This document shows, piece by piece, positions 1 to 40,992 of a stretch of DNA of 64,000 nucleotides. How positions within the stretch are numbered: the first letter of the stretch is position 1; each line of letters starts with the position of its first letter. The position numbers and the translations under genes are program-made. A model generated the notes under the pieces. That model was not told the DNA's origin, did not search any database, and saw only the letters and a list, made by a program, of their open reading frames with translations. The DNA is from an uncultured Candidatus Saccharibacteria bacterium (GTDB lineage: Bacteria; Patescibacteriota; Saccharimonadia; Saccharimonadales; Saccharimonadaceae). Location: contig CANDYV010000001.1 in the NCBI GenBank assembly GCA_947425085.1, positions 11,253 through 75,252 of the forward strand. Direction: 5' to 3'.

Positions 1-2360
1 TGATTGAAGGTAAAGCTATTCAGCTTCACCCGCTCGTGGCTTCTGGCTTTAACGCTGACTACGATGGTGACCAAATGGCGGTCCACCTTCCGCTTTCCGA
101 TGCCGCGCAGGCCGAAGCTGGCGAACTTATGTCTGCTGGCAAGAACTTGTTGAAACCGGCCGATGGCGCTCCGGTGCTCGCGATTTATCAGGACGTCGTT
201 CTTGGTATTTATTACCTCACTTACGACAAGCCTGGCACCGAGACTGAAGAAGTCAAACCGTTTAGTTCGGTCTACGAAGCTGAAATGGCCTACGACCAGG
301 GCGTTATCGCTTTGCAAACCCCGATTCGCGTCTTCGCGAAAGGCGAAATCCGCAACACCACTCTTGGCCGCGTGATTTTCAACGAAGTTTTGCCAAAAGA
401 TTATCCTTTTGACAACTCTGTTCAGACCAGCAAACAACTTAAGAAAGTTATGGCCGACATCTTCGACATGTATGGCGCTGACACGACCGTGAAGACTGCT
501 GACGCCGTCAAGAACTTGGCCTTCGAATACGAAACGATTGCTTCCGTTTCAACCGCTAAGGATGACTACCCGACTTATCCGGAAATCGACGACTTTATCG
601 CCGAGGGTGATGCAAAGACCGCTCTCATTCAGGAACAATTTGACCAAGGTCTTGTCACCGAGGAAGAACGCTATAACTTAACCGTTGCCAACTGGCGCGA
701 CATCGACAAGAAGATTTCTGACTTCTTGAAGAGTAAACTCGCCAGCATGGACACCGATATCGCCGTGATGGTTAACTCCGGCGCTCGTGGTAGCGTCTCC
801 AACATTAAGCTCGCTTCCGCCGAAATCGGTATCATGGTTGATATTAACAACAACGAAATCGAGCTTCCGGTTAAGTCAAGCTACAAGAAAGGTCTCAACA
901 CCCTCGAATCCTTCATCGCCACTCGTGGTGCGCGCCAAGGTCAGGTCTCGACCGCTCTCCGTACCGCCGACTCCGGTTATCTCACTCGTCGCCTAGTTGA
1001 CGTCGCTCAAGATGTCTTCACGACCGACGAAGAGGCTCCGGATCCAGGCTTTGCCGTTTACAAGAGCGAATCCGAATATACTGGCATCGACTTTGCCGCT
1101 CGCATCGCTGGCCGCTACACTGCCGAACCAGTTCCAGGCTATGTTGGTGCTGATGAGTTGATTAGCAACGATATTGCCGAGCAGATTGCGAAAGACGACA
1201 AGATTGAAAGTATTAAGATTCAATCCGTCCTTACTACGACCGCAGTAAGTGGTGTTCCGCGCAAGAGTTATGGTGTCGATATGTCGACCCGCGCTCTCGT
1301 CGCCGCTCACCAGCCGGTCGGTGTTATTGCCGCTCAATCTCTCGGTGAGCCGGGTACGCAGCTGACGCTTGATACGAAACACGGTTCTGGTGTTGCCGGT
1401 TCTGGTGCTATCGCTCGCGGTCTTCCGCGCGTTGAGGAGCTTCTCGAAGCCCGCAGTCCGAAAGGTCAAGCGTTCGTTTCTCCAGTTGCTGGCGTGGTTG
1501 ATGTTCGCGAAGAAAACAACCGCTACATCGTCCAGGTCACTCCTGATACTGGCGATACCTTGCGTCTTGTCCTTGATGGCCGCACTCCACGTATTAAAGA
1601 CGGTGCAACCGTTAGCGCTGGCGATGTTCTTGCTGATAAGGGCGAAGGGAAAGAGCCGCTCATTTCACCGGCCGATGGTAATGCTCAGTTGACCGACGAC
1701 GCGATTATTGTTGTCGCCGAAGCTGGCGCCGCGGTTAAGCTCGATATCCCTGGCGATGCTGAACTCCTCGTCAAGGACGGCGACCGCCTCGAAGCTGGCG
1801 ATCGTATCACGACTGGTTCTTTGAACCTCCAAGACTTGCTCAAGTATAAGGGCGCCGAAGAAACTGCTCGCTACATCATGAACGATGTTATCTCGGTCTA
1901 TGCCGCTCAGGGCCACGAAATCTCCGCGAAACACCTTGAGATCATCGTCCGCCAGATGTTTAGTCGCGTCATGATTGACGAGGCTGGCGATTCTAGCTTC
2001 GTCTCGGGCGACATCGTCTCGAAGGCTGCTATCATTGCTGAGAACCGTAAGCTCGAGGAAGCTGGCAAAGAGCCTGCAACTTACGAAAGCCTCTTGCTTG
2101 GTATTACGAAGGTTTCAATCTGGTCCGACTCGTTCTTGTCGGCTGCGTCCTTCCAGGATACCACTCGCGTCTTGATTAACGCCGCCATCAATGGTCGTGT
2201 CGATCACTTGAACGGTTTGAAGGAGAACGTCATCATCGGCCGCAAGATTCCAGTTGGTACTGGTGTCACTCCGCTCGATGTGACAGATGCCGAAAAGGCT
2301 GAGCTCGAAATCGAAACTGAAGATCTTGAGCCATCCGCCGAAGACGTCGCCGAGATGTAA
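1..2360 (+). CDS. rpoC: DNA-directed RNA polymerase beta' subunit, C-terminal part (5' truncated by window edge)
   Basis: Frame open from position 3 ([12 protein letters not shown]...). Contains catalytic [40 protein letters not shown] and LKENVIIGR. Confidence 0.98.
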
Positions 2361-5994: not shown

Positions 5995-7778
5995 TGCCGC
6001 CAGTCCCGACGGAGCTCGAAGCCTTCCGGGACTGGTTTGCGGAGCACTTTTCACTCTACGACAAACCTTATACGCTCGACCTCGACCAGGCTCGCGCCGT
6101 GCTCGACGGGCATAAGAATACCCTTATCACTGCTCGCGCTGGCTCTGGGAAAACCCGCGTCATCGTCGCGAAGATCGCCTATCTCCTCGCAACAGGCCAG
6201 GCCACCCAAGCCGAAATCGTCGCCTTCATGTTTAATCGCACCGCTGCGCAGGAAGTCAACGAACGCATCGCCGAAGTCAAGTTCGACGGACAACCGATCA
6301 TCAAACATGCCAGCACAGGGCAAACCTCGACCACCGGCCAACATCCCGCAAAAATCGCTTCAACTTTTCATAAGTTTGCCCTTGACATTGTTAAACTTTC
6401 TGGTGCTCGCCCGGAACTTATCTCCGAAATTGAACATGAGGAGCTAATCCGTCGCAGTTTGGATCAGGCTCTCAAATCCTTAGAACCGAAGCGTCATGTC
6501 TCAAAGCGTGACTTCGATGAACTTTTGAAAACTATCTCCGGCTTTGTTGCGCGCGCCGGGCAAAAGTATATTGGTCAAACTGGCCTCGCGGAACTTCAGA
6601 AAAATGTCGAAGATTATGCCTCGCAGCATTTCGACGATCCTAGCTTCGTCGAAAAAGTCCGCCTTCACCAACTCGGCTCCGCCACCTTCAAAAACTATCT
6701 TCAAAACCTTCGTCCGTCCAAAACCGATTTTAATCTCCTCATGTCTCGCGCCGCCGAAGTATTACATGGTTGCGACTTGAAAACAGGGACTGGCGAACTT
6801 CCGCATGACTACGCCACGGCAGCATCCCGCATTCTCCGGAAAGTTCGCCCGCTGAAGTTTATTATGATTGACGAATATCAAGACTTTTCGCAACTTTTCC
6901 TGAACCTCGTGCTGTCTCTGCGAGAAAACTGTCCTTCGGCGCACCTTTTCGCGGTCGGTGACGATTGGCAAGCGATTAACCGCTTCGCCGGTTCCGACGT
7001 CGATTATTTTATTCACTTCGCCGACTATTTTTCGGAAGATGTCATAAACATTCCGCTCATGACTAACTATCGCAGCTGCCGACGCATCGTCGAGAATGCC
7101 AACGACTATATGCTGGGAAACTACGACCCGACCGCCAGCCGCGCTGTCCCTTTCAACCATAAACCCGGCAAAATTATTCGCCGAAATCCAGATAAAACTC
7201 GTTTCGATGCCGACGACATCCGCGAAGACGCCCTCGGCGACGCTCGCTACCAACTCGCTCTCGCTCGTGCTATCGATACTTATAAAACGCCCCTTAACCA
7301 TCAGCCCAAAAGCACGGCACCCTCTACCGACCGCATCAAAGCCGCCAATATCTCCGCCGATGTCGCCAAACTCCTAAAAACCGTTTTCAAAATCCTCCAT
7401 AAGAATCGTCATTCGGAAATCATGCTCCTCCATCGCCATAATTTCACGACTTTCTCAAATATTACGCTCGAAACTTTTTACGCCGCGCTTAAAATCCTCA
7501 CCATCGAAGAGGGAATTATGACGTCAGAAAACTTCGACCAACAAGTCCGCTGCCTGACCATGCACAAGTCGAAAGGGCTCGAATCGGAGGTTGTCATTTT
7601 GCTTGAAGCGAACCGCGACCTCGTTCTCGGCCAACATTCGAACGCCGACCTCTGGCAGCTTTTCGGCGACAACTTCGTAACCGAAAAATCCGACCAGCAT
7701 CGCCTCCTCTATGTCGCCATGACCCGTGCCAAGCAAAAACTCTACATCTTGAGCACCGACAAAAAATTTGCGCTCTGA
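5994..7778 (+). CDS. UvrD/Rep-family SF1 helicase (helicase IV-like)
   Basis: Walker A ARAGSGKT, TFHKF, IDEYQD, VGDDWQAINRFAGS, NYRS, TMHKSKGLE, LLYVAMTRAK. Confidence 0.9.
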   Translation: MPPVPTELEAFRDWFAEHFSLYDKPYTLDLDQARAVLDGHKNTLITARAGSGKTRVIVAKIAYLLATGQATQAEIVAFMFNRTAAQEVNERIAEVKFDGQPIIKHASTGQTSTTGQHPAKIASTFHKFALDIVKLSGARPELISEIEHEELIRRSLDQALKSLEPKRHVSKRDFDELLKTISGFVARAGQKYIGQTGLAELQKNVEDYASQHFDDPSFVEKVRLHQLGSATFKNYLQNLRPSKTDFNLLMSRAAEVLHGCDLKTGTGELPHDYATAASRILRKVRPLKFIMIDEYQDFSQLFLNLVLSLRENCPSAHLFAVGDDWQAINRFAGSDVDYFIHFADYFSEDVINIPLMTNYRSCRRIVENANDYMLGNYDPTASRAVPFNHKPGKIIRRNPDKTRFDADDIREDALGDARYQLALARAIDTYKTPLNHQPKSTAPSTDRIKAANISADVAKLLKTVFKILHKNRHSEIMLLHRHNFTTFSNITLETFYAALKILTIEEGIMTSENFDQQVRCLTMHKSKGLESEVVILLEANRDLVLGQHSNADLWQLFGDNFVTEKSDQHRLLYVAMTRAKQKLYILSTDKKFAL

Positions 7779-7795
7779 ATGATATAATACTACGA

Positions 7796-8587
7796 ATGAC
7801 AACTTATTATCCCAAACAAATCCCTTATCTCCTAGATCAAGATTTCCGCGAGCGAGTGGACTACCAAGAACATCATTTTACGGAGCTGGACGAAGCATGC
7901 TTCTGCCTTTGGACAATGCGCTCACGCGCCACGCTTGCGGGCGAGGTAACGAATTATATCTTGCCGGATGCTTGCATTGATCTGGTGATAGATTTCACTA
8001 AGCAGACTATCAATTTTGCCGGCTTTAGCAAAGCAACCGAGCCATTTCCACTCACTGGTGAGATCGATTATCTCGGGGCGCGGCTGAAACCGAGTGTGTT
8101 TTATGTGTTGTTTGGTGTCGCTGCGCAGAAAGTCATGGATCGCGAATTGCCGTTTAGTGCAGTTGAGCAAAATTTTAATCTTGCCGATATTTTCCGCTAT
8201 ACCGACACCGATGACCGCCTTCCCTACCTTAAATCATACCTACTAACGAAACTCCAAACCCATCCGACATTCCCATATTTCCAGGTTATAGATGAACTTT
8301 ATCAAGCTCCAACTCCGCAAACCGTCACTACTCTTGCGCAGAGTCTGAATTGTTCGAACGGGCGTAGTCTATACCGTTTATTTATGACCCAGTTCGGCGT
8401 ATCGCCAAAGACCTTGCTTAATATCTTGCGCTTGCATTTCGCTCTAACCTTAATTCTGGAACAGCAAAAATCCCTCGTTGATATTGCTAATCTCTGCGGC
8501 TTTTATGACCAAGCCCACTTCAACAAAGAGCTGAAAAAATACACCAATATTACGCCATCGCAAGTTTTGGATAATTACGGCAAATAG
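7796..8587 (+). CDS. AraC-family transcriptional regulator (DUF6597-like N-terminus)
   Basis: ILPDACIDL at the N-terminus and C-terminal HTH GFYDQAHFNKELKKY. Confidence 0.88.
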   Translation: MTTYYPKQIPYLLDQDFRERVDYQEHHFTELDEACFCLWTMRSRATLAGEVTNYILPDACIDLVIDFTKQTINFAGFSKATEPFPLTGEIDYLGARLKPSVFYVLFGVAAQKVMDRELPFSAVEQNFNLADIFRYTDTDDRLPYLKSYLLTKLQTHPTFPYFQVIDELYQAPTPQTVTTLAQSLNCSNGRSLYRLFMTQFGVSPKTLLNILRLHFALTLILEQQKSLVDIANLCGFYDQAHFNKELKKYTNITPSQVLDNYGK

Positions 8588-8654
8588 CCATTTTGTCTGT
8601 TTTTTACAAGACCTTTGGCGTGATTTTTTATACGATAAGAAAAAGGAGAAAACT

Positions 8655-9035
8655 ATGTATCAAACAATTACCGCAAACTTAATGGTGAAAAATGTTAAAG
8701 ACACAATCGAATTTTACGAGGATAAACTTGGGTTCAAGACAATTACTACCGTGCCGGAAGGTGGCGACATCCTCGACTTTGCCATCCTCGGCAAAGATAA
8801 AATTACCATAATGTTCCAAGAGCAGCAGAATCTCTTGGCGGAGTATTTGACTTTACAAAACGGAGTAATCACGCCAACCTTAACCCTGTTTATTACGGTG
8901 GATGATGTGAAGAAGTTATATGACGACCTGAAAGACAAAGTTAAGATTGCTAAAGAATTGCACCAGACTTTTTATGGCAAAGACGAGTTCGCAATTTTCG
9001 ACAACAACGGCAATATCTTAACGATTTCTTGCTAA
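8655..9035 (+). CDS. VOC (glyoxalase/bleomycin-resistance) family protein
   Basis: NLMVKNVKDTIEFYEDKLGF...TFYGKDEFAIFDNNGNIL, with SD aggag. Confidence 0.88.
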   Translation: MYQTITANLMVKNVKDTIEFYEDKLGFKTITTVPEGGDILDFAILGKDKITIMFQEQQNLLAEYLTLQNGVITPTLTLFITVDDVKKLYDDLKDKVKIAKELHQTFYGKDEFAIFDNNGNILTISC

Positions 9036-9143
9036 CATACAGTGCTTTTATTGATTTGGCGGGGCGCACGACTTACGGTGGCGCACCCTATCCATGCGAA
9101 GGGTGGTATAATAAGACAAAATATAATCATAGAAAGAGCATCC

Positions 9144-9689
9144 ATGCCCCGAGCCAAAAGTAAAGCAGAACTCCAAAAAACCGCTGCCGAAAATTATCAA
9201 AAACTTCTCGACATGATCGACGGCCTGACCGAAACCGAGAAATCAACCGAATTTGATTTTTTGAACGACCCGAAGAAAACCGAGCGACATTGGGGCCGCG
9301 ATAAAAATGTGCGTGATATTTATATTCACCTTTACGAATGGCATCAGATGATGCTGGATTTTATCAAGAACAATGTCGATGAAAAGCTCAGCAAACAATT
9401 CCTCCTCGAGCCCTACACCTGGAAGACTTATGGCGATATGAACCAAATACTCTGGGAAAAGCACCAAAACACTAGCGAAGTCGAAGCGCGCAAAATGTTT
9501 GAGAAATCTCACGCCGACGTTCTGAAGCTCGTCGACCGGTTCACCGACCAAGAACTTTTTGAAAAAGGTTTTTATGATTGGACTGGCACGACGAATCTCG
9601 GCAGTTATTTTATCTCTGTCATGCCAAGCCACTACGACTGGGCCATGAAAAAGTTAAAAGTCCATAAAAAGAATTGTGAAAATAGATAA
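9144..9689 (+). CDS. ClbS/DfsB (DUF1706) family four-helix-bundle protein
   Basis: Start re-called at ATG 9144 (MPRAKSKAEL). Family-typical RDKNVRDIYIHLYEWH, YTWKTYG, WTGTTNLGSY and SHYDWA. Confidence 0.82.
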   Translation: MPRAKSKAELQKTAAENYQKLLDMIDGLTETEKSTEFDFLNDPKKTERHWGRDKNVRDIYIHLYEWHQMMLDFIKNNVDEKLSKQFLLEPYTWKTYGDMNQILWEKHQNTSEVEARKMFEKSHADVLKLVDRFTDQELFEKGFYDWTGTTNLGSYFISVMPSHYDWAMKKLKVHKKNCENR

Positions 9690-9715
9690 TCATAATTTAT
9701 AGCAGCGTCCCCAAT

Positions 9716-10309
9716 ATGCCTAAAATCATTTTCAAAGGAATCACCAAGCCAGACGATCCGATTTTCGACGAAGTCGAGCCGCGCCCGAAGAACGCCATCA
9801 CTCTCAAGATTCCCGAGCACAACATGTTCGTATCGCTGATTTTTGCCGTGCCGTTCTTTCTCATTTGCTTGGCTTTAATCCCGCTCAAAGCTTCGTGGAT
9901 GGGCGACTTCCCAATGACGCGCGGCTTTATCCCGCTCGGCATCATCCTCGGGATTCTATGCTATTTTCTACACGAACTACTCCACGCTCTGCCGCAGCCG
10001 AAGCGGGCGAAAGTTTATATCGGCCTCATTCCTAGCCAGTTTATGTTCTATATGAAATGCGCTGCTCCAATAAAACGCAGTCGTTTTATCCTGATGTCGC
10101 TCCTGCCGGCTATTCTTGGTTTAATCCCGCTAGTTATCTTCCTACTCTCCAGTAATCCAGTTCTGAACGCCATTATGTGGCCAATGGCAATGGTCGGGCT
10201 CGTCTCGCCGTCGCCGGATTACCTCAATGTCTACGAAGTTCTGCGCCAAGTTCCGAAAAACGCCTACATCCAGGATAGCAAAGACGGGATGTGCTGGTTC
10301 GTTAAGTAA
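9716..10309 (+). CDS. DUF3267-like membrane zincin metalloprotease
   Basis: HELLH motif between transmembrane helices, and a C-terminal D-containing motif (SPDY). Confidence 0.72.
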   Translation: MPKIIFKGITKPDDPIFDEVEPRPKNAITLKIPEHNMFVSLIFAVPFFLICLALIPLKASWMGDFPMTRGFIPLGIILGILCYFLHELLHALPQPKRAKVYIGLIPSQFMFYMKCAAPIKRSRFILMSLLPAILGLIPLVIFLLSSNPVLNAIMWPMAMVGLVSPSPDYLNVYEVLRQVPKNAYIQDSKDGMCWFVK

Positions 10310-33617: not shown

Positions 33618-33956
33618 TTAAGCCTTAGCTTCGGCCTTCTCAGCTCTCTTGACAGCTTCTTTTTCGGCTTTTTTCACCTTGTTGCCAAGAGAAGCACGCA
33701 ACTTCGCCGCACGCTCAGCGCGAGCCTTGAAGCGATCGACACGACCCTCGGTATCGATAATCTTCTCTTCACCAGTAAAGAACGGATGCGAAGCAGAAGA
33801 AATCTGAACTTTCACCAAAGGATACTCATTGCCATCTTCCCACTTGATCGTTTCTTCACTTTTAGCCATCGAGCGCGTCAAGAACGAAAAGTTCGCTGCC
33901 TCATCCATGAAGACAACATAGCGATATTCTTGCGGTTGTGAAACTTTTTTACTCAT
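33618..33956 (-). CDS. rpmE: 50S ribosomal protein L31 type B (zinc-free) with basic C-terminal extension
   Basis: [17 protein letters not shown] and [11 protein letters not shown]...DTEGRVDRF. No Cys. Confidence 0.93.
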
Positions 33957-40545: not shown

Positions 40546-40992
40546 ATGAAAAAGACAATCAATCTTACGCCAGCTGGCAAAACTGAGCTGGAAAATGAAT
40601 TAGCTGAACTTATTGCCCAGCGTCCCGCCATTGCCGAGCGCATTGCGACTGCTCGTGCTTTTGGTGACTTATCTGAAAACCAAGAATACACCGATGCTCG
40701 TGCTGAGCAAAAAACTGTCGAGAATCGCATTCTCGAAATCCAAGAAACTCTCAAAAATGCCGTCTTGATTAAAGCCCCGAAGAAAACAGACAAAGTTTCT
40801 ATCGGCTCGACCGTCGAGATCACCATGAGCGGCAAAAAGTTTACTTATACTATCGTCGGCCCGGTCGAAGCTAACCCTCTCGAAGGCAAGATTTCTCACG
40901 AATCCCCCATTGGTAAGGAGCTTCTCGGTCGCAAAGTCGGCGAAAGTTTCGACTTCAACGGCAAGAAAGTCACCATCAAAAACGTCGGCTAA
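40546..40992 (+). CDS. greA: Transcription elongation factor GreA
   Basis: ARAFGDLSENQEY and ISHESPIGKELLG. Confidence 0.96.
   Translation: MKKTINLTPAGKTELENELAELIAQRPAIAERIATARAFGDLSENQEYTDARAEQKTVENRILEIQETLKNAVLIKAPKKTDKVSIGSTVEITMSGKKFTYTIVGPVEANPLEGKISHESPIGKELLGRKVGESFDFNGKKVTIKNVG

What the first reader, a model, noticed from the sequence alone, without database searches (positions are those of the whole stretch)
51..1382. RNA polymerase beta' with altered catalytic loop, bridge helix and trigger loop, and no second Zn site
Seen: NADYDGD replaces NADFDGD (51-71). The bridge helix is [14 protein letters not shown] versus canonical STHGARKGLADTAL. The trigger loop is [15 protein letters not shown] versus EPGTQLTMRTFHxGG (1347-1382), so Arg becomes Asp and Phe becomes Lys while His is kept. 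The Cys cluster normally written CxxxxGVCxxCYG reads [13 protein letters not shown] (~1221-1274). Established: the trigger-loop Met/Arg/His residues contact the incoming NTP and affect rate and fidelity. Inference: co-evolved active-centre remodelling that may change fidelity, pausing or inhibitor sensitivity. Zn-site loss parallels the zinc-free L31.
Basis: partly seen in the sequence, partly recalled or inferred. Interest (0 to 1): 0.6.

Follow-up and report, generated by a model that had tools for sequence, protein, structure and literature searches.

The report
Rewired RNA polymerase active centre
The only RNA polymerase of this gut Saccharibacteria (TM7) genus has replaced several residues of its catalytic moving parts that are near-invariant in other bacteria, in nested steps that look like charge compensation, so it offers a natural test of how those parts depend on each other.

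Summary
The window starts inside rpoC, the genome's only beta' gene.

**What the gene carries**
- NADYDGD in the catalytic loop.
- Bridge helix RQGQVST in place of RKGLADT (K781Q, L783Q, D785S).
- Trigger loop TLDTKH in place of TMRTFH.
- No cysteine at the second zinc site.

**How the changes arose.** They are four nested layers, not one package:
- Both zinc sites lost, H777R and M932L: in all ~100 order members read, but in none of 50 other Patescibacteria families.
- NADY: part of the family.
- K781Q with D785S: this genus and its sister.
- R933D, F935K and the AIAR arm: this genus only.

**Evidence for selection and coupling**
- All derived residues are invariant in 83 species, while their codons vary freely.
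- Changes at otherwise conserved sites are concentrated in the F-loop, bridge helix and trigger loop (odds ratio 4.6 to 18, p about 1e-4).
- Trigger-loop Arg933 is unusually labile across the order (R, K, N, D; at least 33 changes).
- Every Asp933 lineage also has a nearby charge adjustment (30 of 30, against 3 of 130 others).

**Reading.** This is a compensated electrostatic rewiring of a working enzyme. Kinetic and inhibitor effects are untested.

Other readers in this scan flagged the same motifs in sister genomes. I found no paper on them.

The parts
3..2360 (+). C-terminal 785 codons of rpoC (beta'). The full gene is about 1285-1298 aa. It starts upstream of the window at G000:C1:9716 and follows rpoB directly.
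   Evidence: ORF and translation. Pfam Rpb1 domains 2-5. The only match in the genome.
51..71 (+). Catalytic Mg loop NADYDGD (F461Y). The three Asp residues are intact.
   Evidence: Tyr is encoded by TAC in 58 and TAT in 25 of 83 genus members. It is present in six of nine sampled genera of the family.
834..872 (+). F-loop variant [13 protein letters not shown]. The rest of the order has DATGR/K and E. coli has AKPDGS here.
   Evidence: A750I fixed in the genus.
900..1007 (+). Bridge helix. The N-terminal hinge reads GARQGQVST (K781Q, L783Q, I/A784V, D785S). H777R, K789R and Asp792 are also present.
   Evidence: Helix 300-335 in the AlphaFold model. All synonymous codons are used at Q781, S785 and the rest.
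1035..1037 (+). Position of the first cysteine of the second zinc site (E. coli C814), here Ala.
1236..1274 (+). Remnant of the second zinc site, [14 protein letters not shown]888T, C895P and C898S.
   Evidence: Cysteine-free in every order member read and intact in 52 of 52 non-order Patescibacteria read.
1344..1391 (+). Trigger loop, N-terminal arm: [16 protein letters not shown] (M932L, R933D, F935K; Q929 and H936 kept).
   Evidence: Invariant in 83 of 83 genus members with free codon use.
1407..1451 (+). Trigger loop, C-terminal arm: [15 protein letters not shown] (D1133A, T1135A, G/Q1136R, F1145L).
   Evidence: All other lineages with data keep DITQ...ELFEA.
33618..33956 (-). Context: ribosomal protein L31 without any cysteine (zinc-free type). 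It is the only L31 found in the genome.
40783..40977 (+). Context: GreA/GreB-family transcript cleavage factor (domain match inside a 152-aa frame).
   Evidence: Coordinates converted from G000:C1:52035-52229.

Best explanation
This is the single, functional housekeeping beta' subunit of a Nanosyncoccus-like gut Saccharibacteria genus. Its catalytic moving parts (F-loop, bridge-helix N-terminal hinge, both arms of the trigger loop) have been rewired electrostatically in steps. Each loss of a canonical charged contact is offset by another change, so the enzyme keeps working.

**Shown**
- The order lost both zinc sites and fixed H777R and M932L.
- After that, the trigger-loop Arg933 position became labile (R/K/N/D).
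- Part of the family fixed F461Y.
- The ancestor of this genus and its sister lost both partners of the K781-D785 ion pair (Q/S).
- The genus stem then fixed R933D, F935K, D1133A, T1135A, Q1136R and the F-loop changes.
- All of these are now under strong purifying selection.

**Inferred**
- Asp933 is tolerated because a basic residue nearby (Lys935 and Arg1136 here) and the removal of Asp785 and Asp1133 rebalance the three-helix bundle formed when the trigger loop folds against the bridge helix.
- The F935 change probably shifts the open/closed balance of the trigger loop towards folding. This is what the equivalent yeast Pol II F1084I mutation does when it rescues N1082A.
- His936, Gln929, Leu932, the Asp triad and the beta-subunit phosphate contacts still carry out catalysis.
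For: **One working gene**
- Single copy, intact, in the rpoB-rpoC operon.
- Motifs identical in 83 of 83 species, with every synonymous codon in use at the derived residues.

**Nesting of the layers**
- About 100 order genomes from roughly 55 families, two further families of the class and 50 other Patescibacteria families were read.
- Trees place the sister genus (Y / QGLIST / LNVFH / DITQ) next to this genus at 97-98% SH-type branch support (FastTree and quick IQ-TREE), inside the NADY clade.

**Lability and concentration**
- Minimum changes on the 116-row tree: 33 at position 933, 12 at 935, 5 at 785, 2 at 781.
- 13 of 77 conserved module columns changed in the genus against 26 of 610 elsewhere (p = 1.2e-4).
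- At columns also conserved in other CPR bacteria and E. coli: 6 of 50 against 2 of 270 (p = 2.4e-4).

**Charge pairing**
- All 30 Asp933 rows have a basic residue at 935 or 937, or no acid at 785. Only 3 of 130 R/K/N rows do.

**Literature**
- K781 is called the invariant lysine of bacteria (PMC3077646).
- K781 alternates ion pairs with D785 and the beta fork, and E. coli K781Q is about 150-fold slower (PMC5791816).
- R933A costs 4-fold in E. coli and 50-fold in Thermus.
- Yeast N1082A is lethal but N1082A/F1084I is viable (PMC3325174).
- The TL C-arm residue 1136 touches R933 in a backtracked Thermus complex (PMC4756841).

**Catalytic residues kept**
- Beta K1065, K1073, R678, R1106, H1237 and D814, and beta' R425, N458 and R731 are kept.
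Against: - No contact distances could be measured. PMC3077646 states that D785 is near the trigger loop but not known to touch it.
- Phylogenetically independent contrasts all go in the expected direction but are too few for significance (p = 0.125 to 0.5).
- The column-wise Fisher tests treat columns as independent.
- The genus stem is long overall (0.31 changes per site), so part of the change may be a general burst.
- One Asp933 lineage (family f73 of the same class) keeps D785 and F935 and has only Lys937, so there is no single rule.
- No enzymology exists for any Saccharibacteria RNA polymerase that I could find.
Confidence: 0.65

Rival explanations
1. Adaptive retuning. The changes were selected to alter the enzyme's behaviour (slower, more accurate, different pausing or translocation bias) to suit a slow-growing epibiont, rather than merely to restore function after drift.
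For: - In E. coli, K781A/Q/D/G raise fidelity, and K781Q favours hypertranslocation (PMC5791816).
- Changes are concentrated in the module that sets rate and fidelity.
- There is strong purifying selection on the derived state.
- The order repeatedly reaches LNTFH, the Pol II-type motif.
Against: - There is no kinetic data.
- Sister genera with similar genome size and habitat keep canonical-like motifs.
- The many alternative states at 933 look more like wandering along a neutral ridge than a directed shift (33 changes).
Confidence: 0.2
2. Inhibitor escape. The bridge-helix cap and trigger loop were reshaped under pressure from natural RNA polymerase inhibitors that bind there (salinamide- or streptolydigin-type compounds made by actinomycetes, the known hosts of cultivated Saccharibacteria).
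For: - Of the nine salinamide-contact residues that PMC4029172 lists as bacteria-specific (beta' 738, 744, 746, 747, 748, 775, 781; beta 675, 677), eight differ here: R738K, R744I, L746I, A748V, S775A, K781Q, beta D675R, beta N677D.
- Several resistance sites (738, 748, 775, 783; beta 675, 677) are changed.
- The beta 675/677 changes are shared by every order member whose rpoB was read (19 genomes).
Against: - This is pure sequence mapping.
- Asp792, which sensitises to streptolydigin, is present (PMC3957892).
- Most cap changes are order-wide, while the trigger-loop changes are genus-specific.
- The hosts of this gut genus are unknown.
- The trigger-loop changes R933D and F935K are not known resistance sites.
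Confidence: 0.12
3. Artefact, pseudogene or specialised second copy. The odd motifs would then reflect a decaying or accessory gene rather than the working polymerase.
For: The genome is only 75% complete, so a second copy on a missing contig cannot be formally excluded for this assembly.
Against: - One match only, with an open 1298-codon frame and the canonical rpoB-rpoC arrangement.
- Near-complete relatives (99-100%) also show a single match.
- 83 species share the motifs with synonymous-only variation.
Confidence: 0.02

Closest known systems
Canonical bacterial RNA polymerase beta' (E. coli RpoC; Thermus thermophilus beta')
   Same: - Domain order, the Asp triad, bridge-helix and trigger-loop architecture, Q929, H936, R780, T790/A791, the GLPRV hinge and the rpoBC operon are shared.
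- The best solved matches are bacterial beta' chains (E = 1e-132 to 1e-160).
   Different: - No cysteine at either zinc site.
- F461Y, H777R, K781Q, L783Q, D785S, M932L, R933D, F935K, D1133A, T1135A, G/Q1136R.
- An altered F-loop.
- No trigger-loop insertion (no SI3).
Eukaryotic/archaeal Rpb1 trigger loop (yeast L1081-N1082-T1083-F1084-H1085) and its genetics
   Same: - The order as a whole has Leu at 932 and often Asn at 933, giving the identical LNTFH motif.
- The pairing of a change at 933 with one at 935 mirrors yeast N1082A being rescued by F1084I (PMC3325174).
   Different: - This is a bacterial enzyme by every other criterion.
- This genus has Asp and Lys, not Asn and Phe.
- Pol II has Glu at the K781 position, while this genus has Gln.
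E. coli bridge-helix hinge mutants K781Q and D785A (laboratory mutants)
   Same: The same positions are changed, and K781Q is the identical substitution.
   Different: - In E. coli, K781Q alone is about 150-fold slower and D785A is strongly defective (PMC5791816, PMC3077646).
- Here both occur together, are fixed, and are conserved in more than 80 species.
Zinc-free beta' of Saccharibacteria noted earlier in this scan (e1-5263520, e1-5271333, e1-2236339)
   Same: The same order-wide loss of both zinc sites. I re-derived it here.
   Different: Those reports deal with the zinc sites. [quoted passage not shown]

Membership tests
Bacterial DNA-directed RNA polymerase beta' (RpoC) | Rpb1 domains 2-5 in order, and high-scoring similarity to solved bacterial beta' chains | tested here: met
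   Pfam PF00623, PF04983, PF05000, PF04998. PDB hits at E = 1e-132 to 1e-160.
Bacterial DNA-directed RNA polymerase beta' (RpoC) | Catalytic NADxDGD loop with three Asp residues | tested here: met
   NADYDGD at nt 51-71. D460, D462 and D464 are kept and only the Phe is replaced by Tyr.
Bacterial DNA-directed RNA polymerase beta' (RpoC) | Single housekeeping copy directly downstream of rpoB | tested here: met
   One match in the genome. rpoB lies at 6340-9753 and rpoC at 9716-13612 of contig 1.
Bacterial DNA-directed RNA polymerase beta' (RpoC) | Two Cys4 zinc sites (E. coli C70/72/85/88 and C814/888/895/898) | tested here: not met
   P/D/V/E and A/T/P/S at these positions. This is an order-wide trait.
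Bacterial DNA-directed RNA polymerase beta' (RpoC) | Bridge-helix hinge GARKGL with the 'invariant' Lys781 (PMC3077646) | tested here: not met
   GARQGQ. Lys is present in 50 of 50 other Patescibacteria families and in all order members read, except this genus and its sister (Gln) and one family (Arg).
Bacterial DNA-directed RNA polymerase beta' (RpoC) | Trigger loop with the NTP-contacting Met/Leu932, Arg933 and His936 | tested here: not met
   Leu-Asp-Thr-Lys-His: Arg933 is Asp, while His936 and Gln929 are kept.
Bacterial DNA-directed RNA polymerase beta' (RpoC) | Catalytic activity as part of a core enzyme | not testable with these tools
   Inferred only, from single copy and purifying selection.
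Archaeal/eukaryotic Rpb1-type largest subunit | Glu at the K781 position, Asn at the R933 position, and a split or extended subunit architecture | tested here: not met
   Gln and Asp here. All best hits are bacterial beta'. The LNTFH motif seen in sister lineages is convergent.

The most novel reading that the evidence does not exclude
Saccharimonadales RNA polymerases have left the canonical bacterial solution for trigger-loop catalysis. Arg933 has become dispensable, and different families have settled on at least five alternative, internally compensated bridge-helix/trigger-loop configurations. This genus is the most extreme, because it also lacks the 'invariant' Lys781. The remodelled bridge-helix cap makes these enzymes intrinsically insensitive to cap- and trigger-loop-binding antibiotics made by their actinomycete hosts. 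The order would then be a ready-made natural library for mapping epistasis in the RNA polymerase active centre.
Probability: 0.25. Interest if true: 0.75.

Novelty: new variant of a known kind. Interest (0 to 1): 0.55.

Why it matters
[quoted passage not shown] Lys781 and Arg933 are treated as fixed in bacteria.

Here nature has replaced them in a whole genus. It has also left the intermediate stages in living relatives, and elsewhere in the order it has reached other solutions:
- Sister genus: Q781/S785 with LNVFH.
- Families with LDVFH plus S785.
- Families with SLDSKH plus KALIDI.
- Families with the Pol II-like LNTFH.

That gives enzymologists a graded series of naturally compensated variants. 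They can be used to test ideas so far explored only with crippled laboratory mutants: hinge ion pairs, trigger-loop folding balance, and positional catalysis.

It also bears on two further questions:
- How far essential enzymes can drift in reduced-genome symbionts.
- Whether Saccharibacteria are naturally insensitive to some RNA polymerase inhibitors.

Some Saccharibacteria are now cultivable and genetically tractable (PMC10633639). Purified polymerase from them may therefore be within reach; the trigger-loop state of the cultured strains is not yet known.

Tried and rejected
- **Contact distances from the AlphaFold2 model** (pLDDT 81.8, both trigger helices folded). Coordinates are not exposed to scripts, so no distances could be measured and the contact argument rests on literature and covariation.
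- **Phylogenetically independent contrasts**. The direction was always as predicted (0 opposite in three of the four tests, 0-1 in the fourth), but with only 3-7 pairs p was 0.125 to 0.5. I do not claim statistical proof of correlated evolution.
- **Naming the unusual representatives**. Only two carried names (Patescibacteria, and 'Nomurabacteria', which is probably a mislabel because it nests in this family), so the taxonomy of trigger-loop variants outside the order stays open.
- **Literature.** No paper was found for 'NADYDGD', for trigger loop with Saccharibacteria, or for trigger loop with Patescibacteria/CPR/TM7. A search for Thermus numbering R1239/D1083 gave only unrelated papers.
- **Pseudogene, artefact or second copy:** rejected.
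- **One co-evolved package:** rejected in favour of four nested layers.
- **The beta E813D change as genus-specific:** rejected, because it is shared by three families.
- **Sampling gap.** The most divergent order and phylum members (lower-scoring matches without listed coordinates) were not read. 'All sampled' therefore means the better-scoring part of each sample: about 100 of the 281 matching order genomes, and 50 families from the 392 matching phylum genomes.
Full report
**What is there**

The window begins inside rpoC. Frame 3-2360 (+) encodes the last 785 residues of beta', with Pfam Rpb1 domains 2 to 5. In the assembly the window is G000:C1:11253-75252. The genome has 717 kb in 45 contigs and is 75% complete.

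The whole gene runs from 9716 to 13612 of contig 1 and follows rpoB (6340-9753) directly. It is the only match to beta' in the genome.

The nearest public genomes are uncultured gut and rumen 'Candidatus Saccharibacteria'. Depositors named several of them Candidatus Nanosyncoccus.

**Checking the observation**

- NADYDGD at 51-71.
- [16 protein letters not shown] at 918-965.
- [16 protein letters not shown] at 1344-1391.
- [13 protein letters not shown] at 1236-1274.

Aligned with E. coli beta' from MG1655, the changes are:
- Catalytic loop: F461Y.
- Bridge helix: S775A, H777R, K781Q, L783Q, A784V, D785S, K789R, N792D.
- Trigger loop: M932L, R933D, F935K, with Q929 and H936 kept.
- Second zinc site: C814A, C888T, C895P, C898S.

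- The first zinc site (C70/72/85/88), just upstream of the window, is also cysteine-free.
- The returning arm of the trigger loop reads [15 protein letters not shown] instead of [15 protein letters not shown]. That is D1133A, T1135A, G/Q1136R and F1145L.
- The F-loop is altered to DINNN.

**Is it real and selected?**

The motifs are identical in 80 neighbouring species-level genomes and in the two other genus members of the order sample.

Across these 83 sequences the derived residues are invariant, while their codons vary freely:
- Y461: TAC 58, TAT 25.
- Q781: CAA 51, CAG 32.
- S785: four different codons.
- D933: GAT 72, GAC 11.
- K935: AAA 49, AAG 34.
- R1136: CGC, CGT, CGA and AGA.

This is the signature of purifying selection on a working protein. 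It is not decay or assembly error.

**How far each change reaches**

I read rpoC from the following samples:
- About 100 genomes of the order, from roughly 55 families.
- Two further families of the class.
- 50 other Patescibacteria families.

One of the order rows (L106, family f34) comes from a genome marked unpublished. No claim depends on it.

The changes form four nested layers:

| Layer | Changes | Where found |
|---|---|---|
| 1 | Both zinc sites lost, H777R, M932L | Every order member read. All 52 sequences outside the order keep eight cysteines, and 50 of them keep H777. |
| 2 | NADY | Six of nine sampled genera of the family, forming one clade (100% branch support). One member has reverted. 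|
| 3 | K781Q with D785S | This genus and its sister genus only (sister at 97-98% branch support). The sister still has LNVFH and DITQ. |
| 4 | L783Q, I784V, R933D, F935K, D1133A, T1135A, Q1136R and the F-loop changes | This genus only, on a long stem (0.31 changes per site). |

Outside the order, all 50 families keep Arg933, and 48 keep the whole [ML]RTFH motif.

**An unbiased look at the genus stem**

Among 687 beta' columns that are at least 90% conserved in the neighbouring families, 39 are changed and fixed in the genus.

| Column set | F-loop/bridge-helix/trigger-loop module | Elsewhere in beta' | Odds ratio | p |
|---|---|---|---|---|
| Conserved in neighbouring families | 13 of 77 | 26 of 610 | 4.6 | 1.2e-4 |
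| Also conserved in other CPR bacteria and E. coli | 6 of 50 | 2 of 270 | 18 | 2.4e-4 |

The six universally conserved module positions that changed are K781, L783, D785, F935, D1133 and T1135. The tests treat columns as independent.

In beta, 27 of 606 conserved columns changed (4.5%, the background rate). They include G682A and N684A in the LMGANMQ segment and N1099S next to the PSRM motif. The main catalytic residues of beta and beta' are kept.

**The wider pattern in the order**

Position 933 is strikingly labile. R, K, N and D all occur, with at least 33 changes on a 116-row tree. The minima at other positions are 12 at 935, 5 at 785 and 2 at 781.

Several internally consistent configurations recur:
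- L[RK]TFH with RKGMIDT.
- LNTFH, which is the Pol II motif.
- LDVFH or LDTFH, always with D785S (7 of 7).
- SLDSKH, always with RKALIDI. This is found in five families, and a KLD[SA][KR]H form occurs in deep-branching relatives.
- LRSYH with RKTMIDT.

Every one of the 30 Asp933 sequences also has a basic residue at 935 or 937, or lacks the acid at 785. Only 3 of the 130 sequences with R, K or N do.

Independent contrasts go the predicted way (three tests had no opposite pair; the fourth had 0-1). They number only three to seven, so p is 0.125 to 0.5. I report this as a consistent trend, not as proof.

**How it probably works**

The literature gives the frame:
- K781 is called the invariant lysine of bacterial bridge helices, and K781A fails all catalytic assays (PMC3077646).
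- K781 alternates ion pairs with D785 and with an acidic residue of the beta fork. In E. coli, K781Q is about 150-fold slower and hypertranslocates, while K781A/Q/D/G raise fidelity (PMC5791816).
- Here both partners of the K781-D785 pair were replaced on the same branch. The fork acid is kept (FDVRD).
- R933A costs only 4-fold in E. coli but 50-fold in Thermus (PMC3325174).
- In yeast, N1082A (the 933 position) is lethal, but N1082A/F1084I (the 935 position) is viable. F1084I on its own is a gain-of-function allele (PMC3325174).
- Residue 1136 of the returning arm contacts R933 in a backtracked Thermus complex (PMC4756841).

My reading is that the loss of Arg933 is offset by three kinds of change:
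- A new basic residue at 935 and at 1136.
- Removal of the acids at 785 and 1133.
- A change at the 935 position that favours trigger-loop folding.

Counting the six charge-changing substitutions (R933D, F935K, D1133A, Q1136R, K781Q, D785S), the net charge of the bundle shifts by only +1. Catalysis would still rest on His936, Gln929, Leu932, the Asp triad and the beta-subunit lysines and arginines.

The contacts themselves are inferred. The AlphaFold model folds both trigger helices, but I could not read its coordinates. PMC3077646 notes that D785 is near the trigger loop but not known to touch it.

**Inhibitors**

Mapping published salinamide contacts (PMC4029172) onto the alignment gives two results:
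- Eight of the nine bacteria-specific contact residues differ here: beta' R738K, R744I, L746I, A748V, S775A, K781Q, and beta D675R and N677D.
- Several resistance sites (738, 748, 775, 783; beta 675, 677) are altered.

Asp792, which makes enzymes more sensitive to streptolydigin, is present (PMC3957892). These are predictions only.

**Side points**

- A GreA-type factor is encoded in the window.
- Beta' has only 4 cysteines in all, against 15 in E. coli.

**What is known**

I found no paper on these motifs or on the trigger loop of Saccharibacteria or CPR bacteria.

Within this scan:
- The zinc-site loss has been followed up on other genomes (e1-5263520, e1-5271333, e1-2236339).
- First readers flagged the same bridge-helix and trigger-loop motifs in sister genomes (e1-5273163, e1-5269134, e1-5247857), without follow-up.

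**Verdict**

This is a genuine, selected, lineage-specific variant of the bacterial RNA polymerase active centre. It is best explained as stepwise compensated rewiring.

It is a new variant of a known kind. Specialists should find it of real interest because it replaces residues held to be invariant and because the intermediates survive in relatives. Its functional consequences are still untested.

Noticed in passing
L123, L133, L134, L137, L144, L157, L158, L160, L176, L177, L179-L181, L183 (order families f4, f32, f33, f37, f51); P0126-P0129: - A second, multi-residue configuration recurs with identical residues in five families that are not one clade in the rpoC tree. It combines trigger loop SLDSKH with bridge helix RKALIDI.
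- A close form, KLD[SA][KR]H, occurs in deep-branching zinc-free relatives.
- It is unresolved whether this is the ancestral state of the order, with repeated return to L[RK]TFH, or convergence or recombination.
   Followed up: partly
L135 (family f68), bridge helix: This family has a natural K781R with G782T (RRTMIDT). In E. coli, K781R is reported to be about 3000-fold slower (PMC5791816).
   Followed up: no
L219 (phylum family f99) and L200 (f179), trigger loop: Two otherwise canonical Patescibacteria have a changed catalytic histidine region: MRTFQ (His936 to Gln) and MRTVN.
   Followed up: no
L235-L253 and P0002, beta residues 670-692 (E. coli numbering): - The beta segment next to the bridge-helix hinge reads EKNRVDR or EKNYVYR in all order members whose rpoB was read (19 genomes), instead of EHDDANR. 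That changes beta D675 and N677.
- This genus alone has LMACAMQ for LMGANMQ (G682A, N684A).
   Followed up: partly
L174 and L175 (same class, other orders): Both keep the two zinc sites but already vary at position 933 (TLDTFHK with H777R; TMKTFHK). Trigger-loop lability may therefore predate the zinc loss.
   Followed up: no
window 33618-33956 (-): The only L31 gene is a cysteine-free (zinc-independent) form with a Lys/Ala-rich C-terminal tail.
   Followed up: partly
G000:C1:9716-9753 (upstream of the window): The longest rpoC frame overlaps the end of rpoB by 38 nt. Relatives are 1285-1287 aa, so the true start is probably the Met 13 codons downstream.
   Followed up: no
P0246 (representative search): An otherwise canonical beta' with both zinc sites and MRTFH also has NADYDGD. 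The Phe-to-Tyr change in the catalytic loop has therefore arisen at least twice.
   Followed up: no
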